Origin: Escherichia phage T4
Direction: 5' to 3' (one strand)
Length of the DNA: 64,000 nt
Sequence record: OL964745.1
Part shown: in pieces, positions 3,159 through 44,100 of the stretch
Layout: every line of letters begins with the position of its first letter
Position numbering within the stretch: the first letter of the stretch is position 1
The notes under the pieces: model-generated
Seen by the model: only the letters and a program-made list of their open reading frames with translations
What the model was told of the DNA's origin: nothing
Databases searched by the model: none
Program-made: the position numbers and the translations under genes

Positions 3159-3940
3159 CTATAAAACGCTACGAATAGGCCCAAACATATCCATAAGCAA
3201 TTTTGCTTTTTCCAGATTGCACTTTTTAATATTAGACATGCATCCTTTAACGGATACAGCTGCGTCTTTAATTCTAGGAAATACTCGTAATAATTTTCCA
3301 GTAGTATCATATTGAAATACTGGCACATTTCTTTTCTGAGTTATCCCACGTAGATTTAGACATTTTTTGTTTAGTTGCATTAGACATCCTAGAGGGCTTT
3401 CCTATGTTATCAGAATAATATTTCCATTGAAATCCTCCAGCGGTTTTCCTTTTACCATCTACACATTGTTTAATTGAAGTTGAACAGCTATGACATATCT
3501 TCTGCAGCATCTGTAATACATCTATATTTGCGAATAAAATTTCCATTTAAATCATATTGATAAATTGGTTTTCCAGCATTTCGTCTAGCGTTAGACATGT
3601 ATTTATTATCATCTTTCCAGAACTCTTTCATGCTTTCCGATATTGAAGAAGATACAGCTGTTTTAATCCATCCATACATTATTATTTAGTCTTGTTCCGT
3701 CAGAACTATAACATCATACGAATAGCTAAAGCCAATTTAGGAAGTCTATAAATTTTAAATAATAAATGCGCGGTAAAATGTTCTTCTGGTGTCAAAAGAA
3801 CTAAATTAGTTTTATCATCTGTACCACCCATACATCTAGGAATTATATGATGTGTTTCAGTATAGTATGTCAAAAGACTTTTATCATTGCCTCTGTTTAG
3901 TCCTTTTTCGATCAGTAAATTATATGTTTAAATAATTCAT
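3159..3940 (-). pseudogene. HNH homing-endonuclease-like gene with IENR/NUMOD-type DNA-binding repeats, split over at least four frames
   Basis: MNYLNI-stop, then HNH motif ETHHIIPRCMGGTDDKTNLVLLTPEEHFTAH in another frame, then three overlapping ORFs (3488-3679, 3307-3546, 3159-3380) each carrying VxQYDxxGxLIxxFxSIxDAA / GKRKTAGGFQWKY modules. Confidence 0.5.
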
Positions 3941-3974
3941 TTTAGTTTATTTTACCAAAAAATTTATAAAGCAA

Positions 3975-11601: not shown

Positions 11602-11825
11602 ATTATTCCTTAATTCCTAGTACTTGTTTAAAAGTCTCGTCGTAATCAAGACTTTGGCCCGTTTGTTCTTTATGCTTGTATATAATCACTTACTTCTGAT
11701 AGCATATTTTTATATGAACGAGTTAAAGCAGATTTAAGCACGCTGTATCTATCAGGAAATTTACCGTGTTCATTATAATAAGCTTGCTAATTCACGGACT
11801 GCCTTTTCAGCAGTCTCCATATTCT

Positions 11826-12136
11826 TTACGCTTTGTCATTTTCTTCTCGGTCAAATCGGTGTTTACAATGGCGACATTTAACGAAGATTATTAGTCTGCC
11901 AATGGACCAATTGCACCTGTTCAGTTCCACATTCAGGGCAATTAGGAACGTTTTTAGAAGCCCTTTCGCGACGTTCAACCATGACCATTACAGAATCCCA
12001 ATTAACAGGAGGGCTAATCATCACAACCATAAATCTTTCCACGCATTTCCAGATCGTCTTCTTCACCAGCCATAATAATTTTAATTAGACTAGAATTACT
12101 TGAAGCTGCAATGTCTTCTAATAGACGCTTTTTCAT
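11826..12136 (-). pseudogene. Small zinc-ribbon ORF region with reading-frame discontinuities
   Basis: CPECG in one frame and CRHC 19 codons later in another frame; three short pieces. Confidence 0.3.
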
Positions 12137-12499: not shown

Positions 12500-12900
12500 T
12501 TCACGAAGGCTAATTACGAGTTTATATCCTTCCCAACCGCATATTCTTAAAAGGATATGTATGAATTTCTACTGTTTCCATACAAAGTAATGCGGTCTCT
12601 AATTGACGAGTTAGTGCTAGCAATTGAGAAAAATTTATTAATATTCTTTTGGTTAGTTTCTGGTGTAAAAAATCCATAATTCACAAATAGATACTTTATT
12701 TTTATCAAGTTCATATTCTTTTATGATAATCATATCAGAAGCCAAAGGATGAATTTGACGATAATCGCCAACATAATTTAGAAGCTGATTTTAGAATTTG
12801 CTTCTTGAAAAGTCTGAAATTACTAATCCAACGACGAGTAAAAATATTCTCAGGGTCTTCTTTATTATTGAGATGATAAGAATTAACATCACCGAACCAA

Positions 12901-13155
12901 TTATCCTACTACATCTTTAGTTCGTTTAATTTCTTTCCCAAAATTACCAAGAATATCCCGATTAACCAAATATGAAAGAAGACGAGACTCTTTAAAGGTT
13001 TTCTTGATAACATCTTTATCTACACGGCTAGAAATTTTACGAATTTCATGAATAAATTTAGTAGAAGAAACAATACTTGCATCAACACTATTGAGCCACT
13101 GATTGATAATAGAAAGAACGCTATTTTGGCCAAACATCGGTATAGCTATCATCAA
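12901..13155 (-). CDS. Hypothetical protein
   Basis: 84-aa ORF. Confidence 0.3.
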   Translation of the reverse strand: MMIAIPMFGQNSVLSIINQWLNSVDASIVSSTKFIHEIRKISSRVDKDVIKKTFKESRLLSYLVNRDILGNFGKEIKRTKDVVG

Positions 13156-13250
13156 TAACGCTATTGAATGATTTGATATTCGTTACGAGTCATATTAATC
13201 TCCTCAGTAGAAAGTAAGAACATTATACCACATCCTTGTGGCAAAGTAAA

Positions 13251-13511
13251 CTAGTTCAGTGCATTTAGTGCATTGTTCAGTTTAGAACGTTGCTTTGTCA
13301 GATTTTGAACCCTTGACTGAGCTTGTTCTAACGCCTTTTCAGCTTCTAGCACTTCATTGGTCGCTTTAACTAATTCAGCATCTACTGCCTTAAGAGACTT
13401 CTCAATCGCATCCGCGTGCCATTTTTCAACAGGTTTAAGACTTGGATTTTCAACAGGAAGAAAATTCACTTTATTGAATTTCCATGCATCTTTATTACCT
13501 GAGCTATACAT
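13251..13511 (-). CDS. Hypothetical coiled-coil protein
   Basis: 86-aa ORF. Confidence 0.4.
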   Translation of the reverse strand: MYSSGNKDAWKFNKVNFLPVENPSLKPVEKWHADAIEKSLKAVDAELVKATNEVLEAEKALEQAQSRVQNLTKQRSKLNNALNALN

Positions 13512-13539
13512 CCAAAATTTAGGATCGTTTGATAAGTAA

Positions 13540-14271
13540 TTAGATATTTAAGTTATCTTGCACTTCTTGCTTTTTCTCTTGTGTGACTTCGTCCTTTCTC
13601 AAAAATTCATATTTAAATGAAACGATCATATCAAGTTCATATGATGTTGTATCTAACTTAAATCGTTCAAAACGAGGTAAAATCTTAGATTGAACAGCAG
13701 CAACAACATCCATATACTTAAATGCTTCTGTCAACTGCGATTTAAGGCATTCGCAAATTGAAAGAGAATTTTTTGTATTAGGTTTAAAGCTAATTCGTGC
13801 AGTTCTATTATTTTCTTTTAACGGTCTTACTTCCATCTGAAGAGTATAACCATCAAATTTCAGATTCTTTAAGTTAATGTCAGAGCCTTTTAATCGACTA
13901 GCAGTAGACAAAATTTGCTTTAATTGTCTACGGAACAGAGCAATAAATCTCCATTCAATACGATAATGATTTGGATTGAAAAATCCAGATGATAAATCGA
14001 CCTTACTTTGACCAACGCCTTGAACAAATAGAGGATTTTTATAATCAATAGTTTTACAGAAATCGGTGAGCTGTTCACGAGCAGTCATTTGAGTAATATA
14101 CCCTGCTTTACTAAAATTACGCACCCATTCACTGCTATTCGTATACTTAAAGTGATGAATAACACGATTAACTTTATCAGGGTCTAAATTATTTTCACAC
14201 AAAAATGTCATAACATCACGAGTATAGCTGGCATTACGAACCATATCTTCAATTTGAGAACGAGTTTTCAT
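13540..14271 (-). CDS. Hypothetical protein (243 aa)
   Basis: Long uninterrupted ORF, no motif recognised. Confidence 0.5.
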   Translation of the reverse strand: MKTRSQIEDMVRNASYTRDVMTFLCENNLDPDKVNRVIHHFKYTNSSEWVRNFSKAGYITQMTAREQLTDFCKTIDYKNPLFVQGVGQSKVDLSSGFFNPNHYRIEWRFIALFRRQLKQILSTASRLKGSDINLKNLKFDGYTLQMEVRPLKENNRTARISFKPNTKNSLSICECLKSQLTEAFKYMDVVAAVQSKILPRFERFKLDTTSYELDMIVSFKYEFLRKDEVTQEKKQEVQDNLNI

Positions 14272-19722: not shown

Positions 19723-19980
19723 AAAGGCCTCCTATCATTTTTGTCCTGTATTTACTTTGTGCCGATGCACGGCCTTAACATCAAGGTATTTTTCAAAATT
19801 TCGCAATAGTATAGTCTGCCGGAGATTGGTTGAGTGATACTTCTCGACGCAAAGCTGAAATGATATTTCCAACTTCCCTACGAATTTCATCTAATTGAAG
19901 AACAGTAAGATTGCGAAGTTGCTTTTCAGTTAATTGTAGCATATACCCCTTTAGTTAGATACCTATTTATAACTTTTGCA

Positions 19981-20962: not shown

Positions 20963-21154
20963 CTACATGCTGTTTACGACCTTTCTTATCAATAAAGGTA
21001 TATTCAACGAATGTTCCAATGTAGTCTTATCTACATCATGTGGACTATTAATTGGACATTTAGTGCGACAAATGCGTTCCCATTGACGAATAATTACTGC
21101 CTTATTCTTTGGGTCATATGGATGTGGATAATGTATATTCATAATAGTTCCCAA
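20963..21154 (-). CDS. Hypothetical small protein
   Basis: 63-aa ORF. Confidence 0.35.
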   Translation of the reverse strand: MGTIMNIHYPHPYDPKNKAVIIRQWERICRTKCPINSPHDVDKTTLEHSLNIPLLIRKVVNSM

Positions 21155-21571
21155 TCAACAATCACAATTTCTAATTTAGAGGAATATGTATCTAAAATCC
21201 CCTCAATAATATCCCAGTTCCCTTTACCTATGCCTGCACCAATCCTAGGCATATAGATTGTAGGTTTAATCAGTTTATTTTCACCAAACTCATTTAATTC
21301 TAACATACAATTCATTAAAGCGGAATACTCAATTTGGCCCTGGTTGAAATTGAGTATAAAGATTGAAGCAGTAAGCTTTATGAGTCCTAAAGTATTTTTC
21401 ATAGACTGAGTAAGAACCGAGTTTAGTTACATCACCCCATTCAGTCTGTAATTTATCAGCTTCCAAAATTTTAGGGAAAGCTTTGGTTAATTGACCCGCT
21501 ACGCCTGAACCCATAGTATGAAAACAATTATCCATGTGCAATATTTTTACCTTCAGCGAAAAGGGCGACAA
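21139..21571 (-). pseudogene. Macro-domain-like ORF split by a frameshift
   Basis: Two overlapping same-strand ORFs (21329-21571, 21139-21402); glycine-rich HTMGSGVAGQ and IGAGIGKGNW segments. Confidence 0.35.
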
Positions 21572-21593
21572 TATCGCCCTTGATATTTTACAA

Positions 21594-24656: not shown

Positions 24657-25620
<964 letters not shown>

Positions 25621-25793
25621 TTTAATTTCCTGCATTCAGTGATAAAGTTATTTAAATTTTGAGCATATTTCTTTTCATCAAAAATCTTTTGCTGTCTGCG
25701 TAACCGCCATGGCATTTCAATGAACATACGCCATATTCCTGATAATACTGCTGCTGTAAAAATATTAACAAGTAGTTAAAAGAATCCAATCGC

Positions 25794-29314: not shown

Positions 29315-29389
29315 TGGTATCCCGCCCTGGGATCGAACCAGGACCGCAAACTTAGAAGGATCGTATGCTATCCATTACACCAGCGGGAC
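29315..29389 (-). tRNA. tRNA-Arg (anticodon TCT), CCA encoded
   Basis: Cloverleaf folded by hand: acceptor GTCCCGC, anticodon loop CTTCTAA, T-arm GGTTCGATCC, 3' ACCA. Confidence 0.8.
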
Positions 29390-29394
29390 GTAAT

Positions 29395-30054
29395 TTAAAA
29401 TTTCATTTTTCGACCTTTAAACCATCCTTCTGGAATTGGGTCAGTTTTCTTAATACGTTTAGAAACTTTTTCATCTAATGAATGAATCCACATCATACCG
29501 AATTGGGAATTCTTTTCACCTTTCTGGTGATTATTTTTGGCGTGAGATTCTTTCATTTTATTAATAGTTTCAGGAGTATGATGCTTATTTAGATCTGCTA
29601 TTATTTAAAAATTTTTCCCTGTATTCAGGAGTTGACCACAAACGTTTAAATACATTTGAACCAATTTTACGATATTTTTCTTGAAGTAAAATATCATTTT
29701 CAAAACGTGACTTAAACGATAGCTCCTTTTAAGCTAGCATCTTTCTTCTGGTTTAGCATTCCAGGAATATTTACATGATCCCATCCACCTTCACCGCCAA
29801 GTTTTAAATTATACACATCTGGTCTATTTAAAAACTCTTCTGTGACAATATTTTTCTCGGCTTCAAGCATAGATTCTTTATCGTCAAAATACTCTAATAT
29901 TTCTTTAGAAAAATTTTCTATACCATATTTATCTTGGGCTCTTTTTAATAATTTACCAGAACCCATATCCATCATCTAAATTTTCGGTAGAATGCACACC
30001 AATATAAATTTTATTATTAATTTTATTTGTTATTTTATAAGTGTAATAGAACAT
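29395..30054 (-). pseudogene. segB: GIY-YIG homing endonuclease (segB-like) split over four frames
   Basis: MFYYTYKITNKINNKIYIGVHSTENLDDGY-stop; MGSGKLLKRAQDKYGIENF (ORF 29712-29975); IGSNVFKRLWSTPEYREKF; NUMOD-like HTPETINKMKESHAK...PIPEGWFKGRKMKF; every junction a +1 shift. Confidence 0.55.
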
Positions 30055-30095: not shown

Positions 30096-30169
30096 TGACC
30101 CAGACCAGATTTGAACTGGTAACCTTTCCCTTATGAGGGGACTGCTGCTAACCATTGAGCTACAGGGCC
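30096..30169 (-). tRNA. tRNA-Ile (anticodon CAT), no encoded CCA, non-canonical D-arm
   Basis: Acceptor GGCCCTG, anticodon loop CTCATAA, T-arm CCAGTTCAAATCTGG; D region GCTCAATGGTTAGCAGCAG lacks a clean 4-bp stem. Confidence 0.65.
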
Positions 30170-30760: not shown

Positions 30761-31036
30761 TTACCATTTATGATGATACGTATTTACGATACATTCAAGA
30801 CCCAAAGGATTCTTGAAAATATCATATTCAAGAGGACCTTTTTCTGTTTCAATAAAGAAATCAAAATTTACTGTATTAAATTTACGGTCTTCCTTTACTA
30901 ATTTAACTTGAGAAGATGAACGATCAATGTAAACCTTTTCAACTTCAAAACACGTTAAAATGCCATAATCATCAATCAAGGCTTTAGCTGCTTCTTGATC
31001 ATATTTATCCATTTTCAACGGATGATACTTTCGCAT
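30761..31036 (-). CDS. Hypothetical protein
   Basis: 91-aa ORF upstream of tRNA cluster. Confidence 0.4.
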   Translation of the reverse strand: MRKYHPLKMDKYDQEAAKALIDDYGILTCFEVEKVYIDRSSSQVKLVKEDRKFNTVNFDFFIETEKGPLEYDIFKNPLGLECIVNTYHHKW

Positions 31037-31039
31037 AAA

Positions 31040-31457
31040 GAATCATCATCAACCTCTATCAACAATAGCATGAGTATGGGCATTTACGATTTGCCACCAG
31101 TCGAAACGATTGGAACCATAATCTGGTTTATTTTCATTTTCTTTAATGATATCACGCAGTTTATCTTCTGTTTCAGCATACGCAATTAAATCATCATATC
31201 CACCACAAGGATAATAATTATCACCTGCGAATAAAAGAAAATTTACCTTAGATGGATTTACGTAATAATGGTCTTTAGGATATAGTTCCTCTCCAATCAG
31301 TTACTTCAACATAACGGTAAGAAAATCCATTTTTACTTTCAATCCAACTCCACGCTTCAAAAGGAGTATTAAAAACTTTATCAGGTATTAAATTACCTTC
31401 AAAATGAGAAGGATTTGCATAATCCCCGGCATAAACATAATATTCGTTAATACTCAT
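31040..31457 (-). CDS. Hypothetical protein region, possibly frame-split
   Basis: 60-aa ORF 31275-31457 followed in another frame by 74 codons without a start. Confidence 0.3.
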
Positions 31458-37849: not shown

Positions 37850-38365
37850 ATGGAAGGTTCTTCTATCGACGTCACCTTTACCGCTCAATTAGAAACAGGT
37901 GAAACGTTAGTATCTATAAATATAACTAGTTACGAAGAAACTCCTGGGGTTTTAGTAGAAGAAAATCGCTTATATGGAACATATGAATCTGTATTTGGTT
38001 TCGGAAATGACGCGTTGAAATATCGTTTAGGCGATGAATTTAAAACTGCTGCTTCATGGGAAGAACTTCCTACTGATTCTGATACTCAGTTGTATTTGTG
38101 GAAAGCTCCTCAAAACCTCCAGAAGACATTCACTTACGAAGTAACATTAATATATGACTACCAAGAACAAAGTGAATCTGGGGGTTCTGGCAGTAATTCT
38201 AGGTCATCTTCTGATACTACTGAACCGACAGATCCTCCTGCTCCAGTAAGAAAAACTCTAGTTAAAAATTATACTAAAACTATAGTTGGAAATTGGAGTC
38301 GTTGGGCTAATAAACTGAGAAAATGCCTATGCAAGACCATAAATATTTTTATTTGTATTCAATAA
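37850..38365 (+). CDS. 5.1: Hypothetical protein gp5.1
   Basis: Start at ATG 37850 with GGAG SD; the track ORF start at 37787 overlaps gp5. Confidence 0.5.
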   Translation: MEGSSIDVTFTAQLETGETLVSINITSYEETPGVLVEENRLYGTYESVFGFGNDALKYRLGDEFKTAASWEELPTDSDTQLYLWKAPQNLQKTFTYEVTLIYDYQEQSESGGSGSNSRSSSDTTEPTDPPAPVRKTLVKNYTKTIVGNWSRWANKLRKCLCKTINIFICIQ

Positions 38366-38910
38366 CTAATAAAACAACAGAAAAAATTTATGTAGGCGTC
38401 CACAAAACTTCAAATTTGGATGATGGGTATGGGTTCTGGCGTTGCCATTAAAAATGCCATTAAAATATGGCATAGATAATTTTTATAAGCATATTATAAA
38501 ATTCTTTGAATCTGAAAAAGCTATATGACGCAGAGGCAGAAATAGTCACAGAGGAATTTGTTAAATCTAAGAAAACTTATAATATGAAACTAGGCGGTAT
38601 CGGTGGCTTCCCAAAACATAACACAGCGGGTGCTAAAAATGGATTTTACGGTAAATCTCATTCGCGTGAAACTAGATTGAAAATTAGCATTAAATCGTCT
38701 AGAAAAAGAGGGCCTAGAGGGCCTAGAGGTAAAACTCTGAAGATGTGTGGCGCCAATAACCCAAGGTATGGCAAAATAGCCCCTAATGCTAAATCTGTTA
38801 TCAACGGCGTTTTATATAAAAGTATTAAAATCGCAGCTAAAGCTCTTAATATAAATTATAGTACCTTAAAGGGGCGAGTTAAAGCGGGGTATTATAAATG
38901 CCAGGATTAA
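38329..38910 (+). pseudogene. segC: GIY-YIG homing endonuclease (segC-like) split by three +1 frame shifts
   Basis: MQDHKYFYLYSITNKTTEKIYVGVHKTSNLDDGY (frame 1), MGSGVAIKNAIK (frame 2), KYGIDNFYKHIIKFFESEKAI (frame 3), then 134-aa ORF 38506-38910 in frame 1. Confidence 0.55.
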
Positions 38911-41182: not shown

Positions 41183-44100
41183 CAGTAAAAGCACCTTCAG
41201 TCACTAGTCTCAGAATTTCCAAGTTATCCGCAAATCAGGTGCAAGTACGCTGGGATGACGTTGGTGCTAATTTCTACAAAATAGTAGAAATCGCTGAGAC
41301 AAAAACAAACTCGGGGGAAAATCTCCCGAGTAATCAATATCGTTGGATTAATTTAGGATATACAGCAAATAATAGTTTCTTTTTTGATGATGCTGATCCA
41401 TTAACAACATACATTATTAGAGTAGCCACAGCTGCGCAAGATTTTGAGCAGTCTGATTGGATTTATACCGAAGAGTTTGAAACTTTTGCTACAAATGCTT
41501 ATACATTTCAAAACATGATTGAAATGCAATTAGCCAATAAATTCATTCAGGAAAAATTTACTCTTAATAATTCTGATTATGTTAATTTTAATAATGATAC
41601 TATAATGGCTGCATTGATGAATGAATCATTCCAATTCAGCCCATCGTATGTTGATGTTTCATCAATAAGTAATTTTATTATTGGTGAAAATGAGTATCAT
41701 GAAATACAAGGTTCTATTCAGCAAGTATGTAAGGATATTAACCGAGTTTATTTGATGGAATCAGAAGGAATTCTATATCTTTTTGAGCGCTATCAACCTG
41801 TAGTTAAAGTATCCAATGATAAAGGACAAACCTGGAAAGCTGTAAAGCTCTTCAATGACCGTGTAGGATATCCTTTATCTAAGACAGTATATTACCAATC
41901 TGCGAACACAACATACGTTCTAGGATACGACAAGATTTTCTATGGCCGCAAATCTACTGATGTTAGATGGTCAGCCGATGATGTCAGATTTAGTTCTCAG
42001 GATATAACATTTGCTAAACTTGGCGACCAATTACATCTAGGATTTGATGTAGAAATTTTTGCCACTTACGCGACTTTACCAGCGAATGTATACCGCATTG
42101 CAGAAGCTATTACTTGCACCGATGATTACATTTACGTTGTCGCCAGAGACAAAGTTAGATACATAAAAACGAGTAATGCACCTATAGATTCTGATCCATT
42201 ATCTCCAACATATTCGGAAAGACTTTTTGAACCTGATACCATGACTATAACCGGAAATCCTAAAGCAGTATGCTATAAAATGGATTCTATCTGTGATAAA
42301 GTTTTTGCTCTTATTATTGGTGAAGTTGAAACATTAAATGCTAATCCTAGAACATCAAAAATAATTGATTCCACTGATAAAGGAATATATGTTTTAAATC
42401 ATGACGAAAAAACATGGAAAAGAGTTTTTGGTAATACCGAAGAAGAAAGAAGACGTATTCAACCCGGATATGCGAATATGTCAACTGACGGTAAATTAGT
42501 TTCTCTGTCTTCGAGTAATTTTAAATTTTTAAGTGATAATGTTGTTAATGACCCTGAAACTGCAGCAAAATATCAGTTAATTGGCGCTGTTAAATATGAA
42601 TTTCCTCGTGAATGGTTAGCTGATAAGCATTATCATATGATGGCATTTATAGCGGATGAAACATCTGATTGGGAGACTTTTACTCCTCAACCAATGAAAT
42701 ACTACGCAGAACCATTCTTTAACTGGTCTAAAAAATCTAACACACGTTGTTGGATAAACAACTCTGATAGAGCTGTGGTAGTTTATGCTGATTTAAAATA
42801 CACTAAAGTTATAGAAAATATTCCGGAAACATCACCAGATAGATTAGTTCATGAATACTGGGATGATGGTGATTGCACTATAGTAATGCCAAATGTCAAA
42901 TTCACTGGATTTAAAAAATACGCATCAGGAATGCTTTTCTATAAAGCCTCCGGTGAAATAATTTCTTACTATGATTTTAACTATCGTGTGAGAGATACAG
43001 TAGAAATTATTTGGAAGCCAACTGAAGTATTTTTAAAAGCATTTTTACAAAACCAAGAGCATGAGACTCCTTGGTCACCAGAAGAAGAGCGTGGATTAGC
43101 TGACCCTGATTTAAGACCATTAATTGGCACAATGATGCCTGATTCTTATTTGTTACAGGATTCGAATTTTGAGGCATTTTGCGAAGCATATATTCAGTAT
43201 CTTTCTGATGGATATGGAACTCAATACAATAATTTACGAAATTTAATTCGTAACCAATATCCACGAGAAGAGCACGCATGGGAATATTTGTGGTCAGAGA
43301 TATATAAAAGAAACATTTATTTAAATGCTGATAAACGCGATGCTGTTGCGAGATTCTTTGAATCACGTAGCTATGATTTTTATTCTACTAAAGGAATTGA
43401 AGCATCATACAAGTTTCTTTTTAAAGTTCTTTATAATGAAGAAGTTGAAATTGAAATTGAATCTGGGGCTGGTACTGAATATGATATAATCGTTCAATCT
43501 GATTCTTTGACTGAAGATTTAGTAGGACAAACGATTTATACGGCAACAGGAAGATGTAATGTTACTTATATAGAAAGAAGCTATTCTAATGGTAAATTGC
43601 AATGGACCGTAACTATTCATAATCTTTTGGGACGATTAATTGCTGGTCAAGAAGTTAAAGCAGAAAGACTCCCTAGTTTTGAAGGCGAAATTATTCGTGG
43701 GGTTAAAGGAAAGGATTTGCTTCAAAACAATATAGACTATATTAATAGAAGTAGATCATACTATGTAATGAAAATTAAATCCAATTTACCTTCTTCCCGC
43801 TGGAAATCTGACGTTATTCGTTTTGTTCATCCAGTAGGATTTGGATTTATAGCAATTACCCTTTTAACAATGTTTATTAATGTTGGTTTAACTCTTAAAC
43901 ATACAGAGACTATAATTAATAAATACAAAAACTATAAATGGGATTCTGGATTGCCTACTGAATATGCCGACAGAATAGCTAAATTAACTCCAACCGGTGA
44001 AATTGAGCATGATTCAGTAACAGGCGAAGCAATTTATGAGCCTGGCCCAATGGCTGATGTAAAATATCCTCTTCCTGATGACTATAATGCTGAAAATAAT

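What the first reader, a model, noticed from the sequence alone, without database searches (positions are those of the whole stretch)
29395..30054. segB-like GIY-YIG gene between the two tRNA subclusters is split over four frames
Seen: the 660-nt interval between tRNA-Ile and tRNA-Arg encodes, in order, a GIY-YIG N-terminus (TYKITN...IYIGVH...NLDDGY), the rest of the catalytic domain (MGSGKLLKRAQDKYGIENF...NLKLGGEGG), and NUMOD-like DNA-binding segments (HTPETINKMKESHAK...PIPEGWFKGRKMKF). Each is in a different frame and every junction is a +1 shift. Established: T4 SegB is a functional endonuclease of about 221 aa at this locus. The span here would encode 219 codons if continuous, consistent with three small indels.
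Basis: partly seen in the sequence, partly recalled or inferred. Interest (0 to 1): 0.55.

Follow-up and report, generated by a model that had tools for sequence, protein, structure and literature searches.

The report
Broken segB gene in lab-evolved T4
This is phage T4's own segB homing-endonuclease gene, inactivated by three separate 2-base deletions; the genome belongs to a laboratory Cas9 "genome-reduction" lineage already in GenBank, so it is a real but ordinary, already-reported pseudogene.

Summary
The window is phage T4, about coordinates 34.7-105.9 kb. The 660 nt at 29395-30054 (minus strand) are T4 segB. They match wild-type T4 at every base except three 2-bp deletions: ATATAT>ATAT at codons 29-31, AAA>A at Lys113, and TTT>T at Phe156. 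Each deletion shifts the frame by +1. The gene is therefore four segments spread over three frames, not four, and the last segment returns to frame 1. Translation from the native ATG stops after 33 aa, which separates the GIY/YIG motifs from the rest of the catalytic domain and from the DNA-binding part.

The same three deletions occur in GenBank MZ375356, "Mutant T4 clone T4_583L" (Yuan et al. 2022, CiPGr: serial passage on an SpCas9/sgRNA library). The window shares 39 of its 49 small deletions with that record, and also a precise nrdC.3 deletion. Window-wide there are 51 deletions of 2-4 bp. All sit in or beside dispensable genes, and none falls in the 25-kb structural block (p ~1e-11). The only one found in a gene left readable is an in-frame 3-bp loss in a-gt. 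This argues for real, selection-filtered mutations rather than base-calling errors.

The small deletions are not enriched near NGG PAMs, and two of the three segB sites lie in no protospacer. They carry a strong A/T microrepeat signature. Already known; low interest.

The parts
29395..30054 (-). T4 segB pseudogene: full span from the native ATG to the native TAA, 660 nt instead of 666
   Evidence: identical to NC_000866 71253-71918 apart from three 2-bp deletions.
29965..30054 (-). Segment 1, frame 1: SegB aa 1-30, carrying the GIY...YIG motifs. The ORF runs on to a stop at 29953-29955, giving a 33-aa product ending ...DDGYGFW*
   Evidence: Pfam GIY-YIG scores only 18.4 bits for this fragment, below the 22.6 cut-off.
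29965..29968 (-). Deletion 1: ATATAT>ATAT at T4 71827-71832, codons 29-31 (GGA TAT ATG). This is the only one of the three sites that abuts an NGG PAM (on the minus strand)
29721..29966 (-). Segment 2, frame 2: SegB aa 31-112, the rest of the catalytic domain. It lies inside the mechanical ORF 29712-29975 (87 aa)
29720..29720 (-). Deletion 2: the coding-strand AAA (Lys113) is reduced to A (T4 71580-71582). No NGG protospacer on either strand covers this site
29594..29719 (-). Segment 3, frame 3: SegB aa 114-155 (SFKSRFENDILL...EKFLNNSR).
29593..29593 (-). Deletion 3: the coding-strand TTT (Phe156) is reduced to T (T4 71451-71453). No NGG protospacer covers this site
29395..29592 (-). Segment 4, back in frame 1: SegB aa 157-221 plus the stop, including the weak NUMOD3-like stretch. 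The internal ATG ORF 29395-29556 (53 aa) is what the T4_583L record annotates as 'SegB homing endonuclease'
29315..29389 (-). tRNA-Arg (UCU), the downstream flank, unchanged from T4
30096..30169 (-). tRNA with anticodon CAU (T4 tRNA-Ile), the upstream flank, unchanged from T4

Best explanation
The locus is phage T4's own segB gene, a free-standing GIY-YIG homing endonuclease in the tRNA cluster. It has become a pseudogene through three independent 2-bp deletions at A/T microrepeats.

**How the gene is broken (shown).** The first deletion shifts the frame after Tyr30, and translation ends at residue 33. That separates the GIY/YIG tyrosine motifs from the downstream catalytic residues and from the C-terminal DNA-binding part. 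The later segments lie in other frames. I saw no obvious Shine-Dalgarno sequence before their internal ATGs; this is my reading of the sequence and was not scanned.

**Consequence (inferred).** No functional SegB should be made. The flanking tRNA genes are untouched.

**Where the genome comes from (shown by comparison).** The genome is a sibling of GenBank MZ375356 (T4_583L). That clone came from the CiPGr experiment, in which T4 was passaged hundreds of times on E. coli carrying SpCas9 and a pooled sgRNA/donor library aimed at non-essential genes.

**How the deletions arose (inferred).** They were acquired during that passage and tolerated because segB is dispensable in monoculture. The most likely origin is slippage or microhomology-mediated misrepair during repeated break repair in Cas9-targeted genes, with at most a minority being true protospacer/PAM escape mutations.
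For: **Identity of the gene**
- the only differences from NC_000866 across 907 nt are the three 2-bp deletions. MZ375356 has the same three plus one more.
- restoring the bases gives the 221-aa SegB, and the four segments map to aa 1-30, 31-112, 114-155 and 157-221.
- the intact protein passes Pfam GIY-YIG (28.3 bits against a 22.6 cut-off). No ORF in the window does.

**Lineage**
- 39 of 49 small deletions are shared with T4_583L, and across the roughly 35-kb block from the tRNA cluster through the structural genes the two genomes differ by only one substitution.
- both carry the same 905-bp deletion of nrdC.3, running from just after the ATG to 22 nt before the stop.
- the mutant phages were sequenced on Illumina and assembled de novo.

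**Real mutations filtered by selection**
- 0 of 51 deletions of 2-4 bp fall in the last 25 kb, which holds the structural genes (p = 8e-12).
- the a-gt gene carries only an in-frame 3-bp loss.
- the small deletions are polymorphic between the two clones.

**Mutational signature**
- 54 of 57 two-bp deletions have at least 1 bp of microhomology, against 47% expected (p = 1e-14).
- 59 of 71 footprints are A/T-only, against 45% expected.

**Dispensability**
Against: - No read-level data were available.
- No public record is 100% identical to the window. The best match is MZ375356 at 99.8% over the segB region.
- The window carries three deletions of exactly 2046 bp with no junction homology. This looks computational rather than biological, so part of the window may be a reference-guided reconstruction.
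- The mechanism that makes the deletions is not established. They show no enrichment near NGG PAMs. The strong bias to -2 over -1 is, from my own knowledge of T4 frameshift genetics, not the classical spontaneous T4 frameshift spectrum.
- The spacer list (the paper's supplement) could not be read.
Confidence: 0.85

Rival explanations
1. The three deletions are classical CRISPR-escape mutations. Each would destroy a protospacer or PAM of one of the roughly 5-8 SpCas9 spacers designed per gene. This is the original authors' tentative suggestion for this class of mutation.
For: - The lineage was evolved under an SpCas9 spacer library with several spacers per gene.
- Site 1 (ATATAT) directly abuts a minus-strand GGG/TGG PAM, so it lies in a seed region.
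- Several hits per gene match the multi-spacer design.
Against: - Sites 2 and 3, and the fourth site in T4_583L, have no NGG within 20 nt on either strand.
- Across 71 small deletions there is no enrichment relative to matched A/T-repeat controls: abutting a PAM 11% vs 9%, within 3 nt 28% vs 25%, in the seed 42% vs 43%, inside a protospacer 66% vs 66%.
- Nine of the 71 sites are intergenic, outside the coding sequences the spacers were designed to span.
Confidence: 0.15
2. The breaks are sequencing, assembly or consensus-building artefacts, and the physical phage has an intact segB.
For: - No reads were available.
- The window contains three deletions of exactly 2046 bp whose left ends coincide with larger, microhomology-flanked deletions in T4_583L. 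That suggests some computational reconstruction.
- A/T microrepeats are error-prone for some sequencing platforms (my own knowledge, not tested here).
Against: - The identical deletions are in MZ375356, and the paper says the mutant phages were sequenced on Illumina and assembled de novo.
- The class is wholly absent from 25 kb of equally A/T-rich essential genes. It is in-frame in the retained a-gt gene. It is polymorphic between the two clones.
- The authors saw the class in population reads, in T4 only.
- Fourteen other T4-type records lack these deletions.
Confidence: 0.07
3. The gene is still expressed by recoding. Programmed +1 ribosomal frameshifting or transcriptional slippage at the three junctions would rebuild a 219-aa SegB.
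For: - All three shifts go in the same direction (+1) and sum to a whole number of codons, so the last segment returns to frame 1.
- The sites are A/T-rich repeats.
Against: - Every wild-type T4 checked encodes a continuous ORF. The junctions are simple losses of 2 bp from that ORF, not conserved recoding signals.
- Three successive low-efficiency events would give negligible product.
- The same kind of lesion is scattered over about 20 other dispensable genes.
- The junction sequence is absent from IMG/VR and JGI metagenome contigs.
Confidence: 0.01
4. The lesions were deliberately engineered or donor-templated. They would have been copied into the phage from the chip-synthesised homology arms, which carry many synthesis errors.
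For: - Only about 42% of cloned cassettes matched the design exactly.
- T4 is known to recombine with plasmids (my own knowledge, not tested here).
Against: - The published design only makes 100-bp or whole-gene deletions.
- This lineage shows a whole-gene scar (nrdC.3) and no 100-bp scars. Its donor arms would therefore lie at gene borders, whereas the segB lesions are at CDS positions 87-92, 337-339 and 466-468 of 666.
- Synthesis errors are, to my knowledge, mostly single-base deletions without an A/T-repeat bias.
Confidence: 0.03

Closest known systems
Phage T4 segB (NP_049745.2; NC_000866 71253-71918). SegB is a homing endonuclease characterised by Brok-Volchanskaya et al. 2008 (PMC2330249)
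   Same: Same gene, same position between tRNA-Ile and tRNA-Arg, and identical at every aligned base. The domain layout is a GIY-YIG N-terminus with a NUMOD3-containing C-terminus (PMC2330249).
   Different: Six bases are missing, as three 2-bp deletions, so the ORF is broken into four pieces. The native start yields only 33 aa.
The segB allele of the genome-reduced mutant T4_583L (GenBank MZ375356; Yuan et al. 2022, PMC9825161)
   Same: Carries the same three 2-bp deletions. It also shares 39 of the window's 49 small deletions and the nrdC.3 deletion.
   Different: T4_583L has a fourth 2-bp deletion in the spacer between the ribosome-binding site and the ATG of segB. It also has further or larger deletions (e.2-e.7/e.8, ipIII, denV, and larger nrdG-nrdD and mobD deletions). 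Ten small deletions are private to the window.
T4 CRISPR-escape mutants (Wu et al. 2021, PMC8262927; invoked by Yuan et al. 2022)
   Same: They arise in glucosyl-hmC T4 under Cas9 pressure. Site 1 of segB fits a seed/PAM escape.
   Different: Escape mutations are defined by hitting the protospacer or PAM. Two of the three segB lesions cannot do so, and the class shows no PAM enrichment. The passage of PMC8262927 retrieved here describes single-nucleotide substitutions and a 2-nt insertion in the protospacer, not PAM-distant 2-bp deletions.
Naturally degenerate homing-endonuclease genes, e.g. the split segB of Escherichia phage vB_EcoM_PTE-Eco15 (PQ352352.2)
   Same: A segB homologue at the same tRNA locus, annotated as two CDSs because of a frameshift.
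   Different: That one has a single +1 insertion in an A-run, in a gene diverged from T4 segB (85% identity across the 901-nt query region). It is an independent event. The window's allele is otherwise identical to T4 and carries three -2 lesions.

Membership tests
T4 segB (GIY-YIG homing endonuclease gene of the tRNA cluster) | Orthologous sequence at the syntenic position between tRNA-Ile(CAU) and tRNA-Arg | tested here: met
   identical to T4 except for 6 deleted bases, with the same flanking tRNAs.
T4 segB (GIY-YIG homing endonuclease gene of the tRNA cluster) | An encoded protein with a recognisable GIY-YIG catalytic domain (Pfam PF01541 at or above its 22.6-bit cut-off) | tested here: not met
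   the intact T4 SegB scores 28.3 bits. The window's best ORF, the 33-aa N-terminal fragment, scores 18.4 bits. The 87-aa ORF has no PF01541 hit.
T4 segB (GIY-YIG homing endonuclease gene of the tRNA cluster) | One continuous ORF joining the catalytic domain to the C-terminal DNA-binding part | tested here: not met
   four segments in three frames, with a stop after codon 33.
T4 segB (GIY-YIG homing endonuclease gene of the tRNA cluster) | Site-specific cleavage and homing activity | not testable with these tools
   This needs an in vitro cleavage assay or a T4 x T2L cross, as in PMC2330249.
CiPGr genome-reduced T4 lineage (Yuan et al. 2022) | Shares private mutations with a deposited CiPGr clone | tested here: met
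   39 shared small deletions, the identical 905-bp nrdC.3 deletion, and only one substitution difference across about 35 kb.
CiPGr genome-reduced T4 lineage (Yuan et al. 2022) | Identity to a specific deposited record | tested here: inconclusive
   the best match, MZ375356, is 99.8% identical and no record is 100% identical; the 87-aa ORF is not on record.
SpCas9 CRISPR-escape mutation | The lesion lies in the PAM or protospacer of an NGG target | tested here: not met
   this holds for site 1 only. Sites 2 and 3 have no NGG or CCN within 20 nt in the required orientation.
SpCas9 CRISPR-escape mutation | The class of lesions is enriched at PAMs or seeds relative to matched sites | tested here: not met
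   11% vs 9%, 28% vs 25%, 42% vs 43% and 66% vs 66%, with all p > 0.3.
SpCas9 CRISPR-escape mutation | Overlap with the spacers actually used | not testable with these tools
   the supplementary spacer tables are not held.
Programmed frameshift / recoded gene | The shift site is conserved in relatives | tested here: not met
   the other T4 records lack the deletions, and the two checked directly (NC_000866, MT984581) annotate a continuous ORF; the junction sequence is absent from IMG/VR and JGI contigs.
Sequencing or assembly indel artefact | Errors are distributed without regard to gene essentiality or reading frame | tested here: not met
   0 of 51 in the structural-gene block (p = 8e-12); only an in-frame loss in a-gt.

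The most novel reading that the evidence does not exclude
The 2-bp deletions, in segB and in about 20 other dispensable genes, may record a distinct and undescribed mutational process in T4 under Cas9 attack. The process would be strongly biased to -2 losses at A/T microrepeats and would be independent of PAMs. It would act regionally on targeted genes and their immediate flanks, as collateral mutagenesis of repeated recombination-dependent break repair, rather than as escape at the cut site. If so, Cas9 pressure would erode whole targeted genes, not just protospacers.
Probability: 0.3. Interest if true: 0.45.

Novelty: already known. Interest (0 to 1): 0.12.

Why it matters
There is little new biology in the locus itself. 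T4 segB is well characterised, and this disrupted allele is already in GenBank from a published genome-reduction experiment that reported the class of small deletions.

It has three practical uses:
- **Annotation.** The fragments should be labelled as a pseudogene. The sister record calls the 53-aa C-terminal ORF "SegB homing endonuclease", which is misleading.
- **Dispensability.** It confirms that segB is dispensable for lytic growth in monoculture.
- **A side question.** The window-wide pattern is -2 biased, limited to A/T microrepeats, unrelated to PAMs and restricted to targeted, dispensable genes. It suggests the authors' "CRISPR-escape" explanation is incomplete and that break-repair-associated mutagenesis in T4 deserves a direct test.

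A strain lacking SegB would also be expected to lose marker exclusion of the T2-type tRNA region (shown for T4 in PMC2330249). It might also lose SegB-driven segmental amplification of anti-defence loci, which was shown for T6 SegB (PMC13096335). Both consequences are inferred, not tested.

Tried and rejected
- **Exact-protein look-up** of the 87-aa frame-2 ORF in public assemblies found nothing on record.
- **Exact search for the deletion-2 junction** (AAAAGGAGCTATCGTTTAAGTCACG) gave 0 hits in IMG/VR and 0 in JGI metagenome contigs. The allele is not seen in nature in those sets.
- **CRISPR-escape explanation.** I tested it with PAM-distance statistics on 48 and then 71 sites against matched controls and found no enrichment. 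I reject it as the general cause and keep it only for segB site 1.
- **Codon-aware or designed lesions.** The AAA footprints are mostly in codon phase 0, but 57% of isolated AAA triplets in these genes are in phase 0 anyway. Overall phases were 21:14:17. I reject this idea.
- **Every instance of a motif mutated.** Only about 10 of 364 isolated AAA/TTT triplets in the affected genes are hit, so this is rejected.
- **Donor-arm synthesis errors.** Rejected on geometry.
- **Natural strain polymorphism.** Rejected, because all other T4 records are intact.
- **Substitutions relative to NC_000866 in the structural genes.** Most are legacy differences of the old reference: in a gp12 sample modern T4 records are 99.9% identical to the window against 99.2% for NC_000866, and the count of substitution sites falls to 16 against MT984581.
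- **Supplementary spacer tables** of PMC9825161 are not held.
- **Literature.** A search found no follow-up paper that explains the small deletions.

Full report
**What is in the sequence**

The window's minus strand between 29315 and 30666 carries the T4 tRNA cluster: Gln, Leu, Gly, Pro, Ser, Thr and a CAU-anticodon tRNA, then a gap, then tRNA-Arg. The gap holds a 660-nt stretch (29395-30054). It begins with MFYYTYKITNKINNKIYIGVH... and ends with ...PEGWFKGRKMKF*, but it is full of stops in any single frame.

A megablast search of the phage collection shows the region is phage T4. Fourteen T4-type records align at 99.3% over 907 nt against the window's 901 nt. One record, MZ375356 "Mutant Escherichia phage T4 clone T4_583L", aligns at 99.8%.

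**The lesions**

A three-way alignment shows no substitution at all. The window differs from NC_000866 only by three 2-bp deletions inside segB:
- GGATATATGGG > GGATATGGG
- GCTAAATCG > GCTATCG
- CAGATTTCT > CAGATCT

T4_583L has the same three, plus a fourth in the spacer between the ribosome-binding site and the ATG.

In window coordinates the lesions are at 29965-29968, 29720 and 29593. In the coding sequence they are at positions 87-92, 337-339 (Lys113) and 466-468 (Phe156) of 666.

Mapping the 221-aa T4 protein onto the three frames gives four segments:

| Segment | SegB residues | Frame | Window coordinates |
|---|---|---|---|
| 1 | 1-30 | 1 | 30054-29965 |
| 2 | 31-112 | 2 | 29966-29721 |
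| 3 | 114-155 | 3 | 29719-29594 |
| 4 | 157-221 | 1 | 29592-29398 |

It is wrong in detail. There are three frames, not four, and the first and last pieces share a frame. The frame-3 piece was missed, and 29975 and 29712 are ORF ends rather than break points.

**Consequence for the protein**

Intact SegB passes the Pfam GIY-YIG threshold (28.3 bits against 22.6) and has a weak NUMOD3 match. None of the window's ORFs passes. Translation from the native start ends after 33 residues. That is downstream of the GIY/YIG motifs but upstream of the rest of the catalytic domain.

SegB is a site-specific endonuclease that makes mostly 2-nt 3' overhangs. [quoted passage not shown] I therefore infer that homing is lost. 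The flanking tRNAs and the small RNAs rnaC and rnaD show no difference from modern T4.

**Where the genome comes from**

The whole window aligns to T4 from about 34.7 to 105.9 kb.

I compared it with a modern T4 sequence, MT984581. This avoids legacy errors in NC_000866: in a gp12 sample, modern T4 records are 99.9% identical to the window, against 99.2% for NC_000866. Against MT984581 the window has:
- 38 two-bp, 12 three-bp, one four-bp and four one-bp deletions
- 16 substitution sites
- four large deletions

It shares 39 of its 49 small deletions with T4_583L. Across the roughly 35-kb block from the tRNA cluster through the structural genes, the two genomes differ by only one substitution. 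They also share an identical 905-bp deletion that removes nrdC.3 from just after its ATG to 22 nt before its stop.

T4_583L comes from Yuan et al. 2022 (PMC9825161). That study passaged T4 300-600 times on E. coli carrying SpCas9 and pooled plasmids. Each plasmid held a spacer and a 2 x 50-bp donor designed to delete 100 bp or a whole non-essential gene. [quoted passage not shown] They say these were not designed, and that some can "probably be explained" as CRISPR-escape mutations. The window is therefore a sibling clone of that lineage. No record identical to it is in the collection searched.

**Real mutations or errors?**

- All 51 deletions of 2-4 bp lie before window position 38,800, in or next to dispensable genes: mobB, nrdC.1, nrdC.2, nrdC.4, nrdC.5, nrdC.6, mobD.5, rI.1, tk.4, nudE, segB, trna.2, trna.3, 5.1, segC and 5.3.
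- None lies in the final 25 kb, which holds the baseplate, tail and head genes (P = 8e-12 under uniformity).
- The one found in a gene left readable, a-gt, is an in-frame 3-bp loss, INNYKK > INYKK.
- The class is polymorphic between the two clones.
- The study sequenced its mutant phages on Illumina and assembled them de novo.

Taken together, this argues for real mutations filtered by selection or confined to targeted genes. It argues against base-calling noise.

**How the deletions arose**

I tested the escape explanation directly.

For segB, site 1 abuts a minus-strand GGG/TGG PAM. Sites 2 and 3, and T4_583L's fourth site, have no NGG within 20 nt in the required orientation.

Over 71 distinct small deletions from the two genomes, I measured proximity to NGG against A/T-repeat controls drawn from the same genes. 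The two were indistinguishable:

| Position relative to NGG | Observed | Control |
|---|---|---|
| Abutting the PAM | 11% | 9% |
| Within 3 nt | 28% | 25% |
| In the seed | 42% | 43% |
| Inside a protospacer | 66% | 66% |

By contrast, the sequence signature is strong:
- 54 of 57 two-bp deletions have at least 1 bp of microhomology (47% expected, p = 1e-14).
- 35 of 57 have at least 2 bp (18% expected).
- 59 of 71 footprints are A/T-only (45% expected).

Typical events are ATATAT>ATAT, TATAT>TAT, TTTA>TA and AATAATAAT>AATAAT.

Nine sites are intergenic, most of them just upstream of genes that were hit. Codon phase shows no real preference once codon usage is taken into account. Donor-arm synthesis errors do not fit the geometry, because the lesions sit deep inside genes in a lineage whose only designed scar is a whole-gene deletion.

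My best inference, which is not shown, is slippage or microhomology misrepair during repeated recombination-dependent repair of Cas9 breaks in targeted genes. A minority of the lesions may be true escapes. The strong preference for -2 over -1 remains unexplained.

**Comparison with what is known, and verdict**

The gene is T4 segB by sequence and by synteny. It fails the tests for a functional family member, which are an intact ORF and a detectable catalytic domain in a single product. It is best filed as a laboratory-acquired pseudogene.

A natural phage, PTE-Eco15, also has a split segB. That split comes from a different, single +1 insertion.

The allele and the class of lesions are already public, so novelty is "already known" and interest is low. 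The only mildly interesting residue is the PAM-independent, -2-biased microrepeat signature.

One caution on provenance. The window's three other large deletions are each exactly 2046 bp with no junction homology. They start where T4_583L's larger, microhomology-flanked deletions start. That looks like a computational length cap rather than biology.

Noticed in passing
window junctions 8057, 17827/17828, 22996/22997: Relative to modern T4 (MT984581), three large deletions are each exactly 2046 bp: nrdG..I-TevII, nrdC.11-mobD.1 and vs.3-vs.8. Their junction overlap is only 0-1 bp. Their left ends coincide with the left ends of larger deletions in T4_583L (3328, 2688 and 2608 bp), which do have 10-20 bp of junction microhomology. 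Three identical sizes (2^11 - 2) look like a length cap in a reference-guided reconstruction rather than biology.
   Followed up: partly
window 12154/12155: A precise 905-bp deletion of nrdC.3, running from just after its ATG to 22 nt before its stop. It preserves the overlapping nrdC.2 start and is identical in T4_583L. It looks like the designed 'cassette-gene' edit of the CiPGr method.
   Followed up: partly
window 2830-38798 (clusters at 3351-3974, 11685-12015, 12541-13546, 19780-19961, 21147-21583, 25234-25773, 31006-31283, 38323-38798): There are 51 deletions of 2-4 bp relative to wild-type T4, clustered in mobB, nrdC.1/.2/.4/.5/.6, mobD.5, rI.1, tk.4, nudE, trna.2/.3, 5.1, segC and 5.3. 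They occur almost always at A/T microrepeats, show no NGG-PAM enrichment, and are absent from the structural genes.
   Followed up: yes
window 2830 (a-gt): An in-frame 3-bp deletion (TTATTA>TTA) removes one Asn from alpha-glucosyltransferase (INNYKK>INYKK). Among the genes I checked, this is the only small deletion that leaves its gene readable.
   Followed up: partly
window 41278-41283 (gene 7): The 6-nt loop of a hairpin is inverted: ctacTATTTTgtag becomes ctacAAAATAgtag. This changes gp7 residues YF to KI. It is shared with T4_583L and absent from NC_000866 and MT984581. It looks like a quasipalindrome template-switch mutation.
   Followed up: no
window 50027 and 50030 (gene 12): Two substitutions change CAT GAT to TAT AAT. 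By my codon arithmetic this is His454Tyr and Asp455Asn, in the C-terminal third of the short tail fibre gp12. They are shared with T4_583L and absent from both wild-type references. This may be adaptation to the MG1655 host.
   Followed up: no
window 30734: A 3-bp deletion in a TAATAATAA repeat lies about 70 nt upstream of tRNA-Gln, between the tRNA cluster and trna.2. It is shared with T4_583L and might touch the cluster's upstream regulatory region.
   Followed up: no
L002 843-1004 (MZ375356 53786-53947): The GenBank record of T4_583L annotates only the 53-aa C-terminal internal ORF as 'SegB homing endonuclease'. It is a pseudogene fragment.
   Followed up: yes
L009 445-1111 (PQ352352.2): The natural phage vB_EcoM_PTE-Eco15 has its segB homologue annotated as two CDSs because of a single extra A in an A-run. 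This is an independent frameshift, and could be either natural decay or a sequencing error.
   Followed up: partly
whole window vs NC_000866: Most of the roughly 50 substitutions and the paired +1/-1 indels relative to NC_000866/AF158101 are not present relative to MT984581. In a gp12 sample, other modern T4 records are likewise 99.9% identical to the window. These are legacy errors or strain differences in the old reference, not features of this clone.
   Followed up: yes
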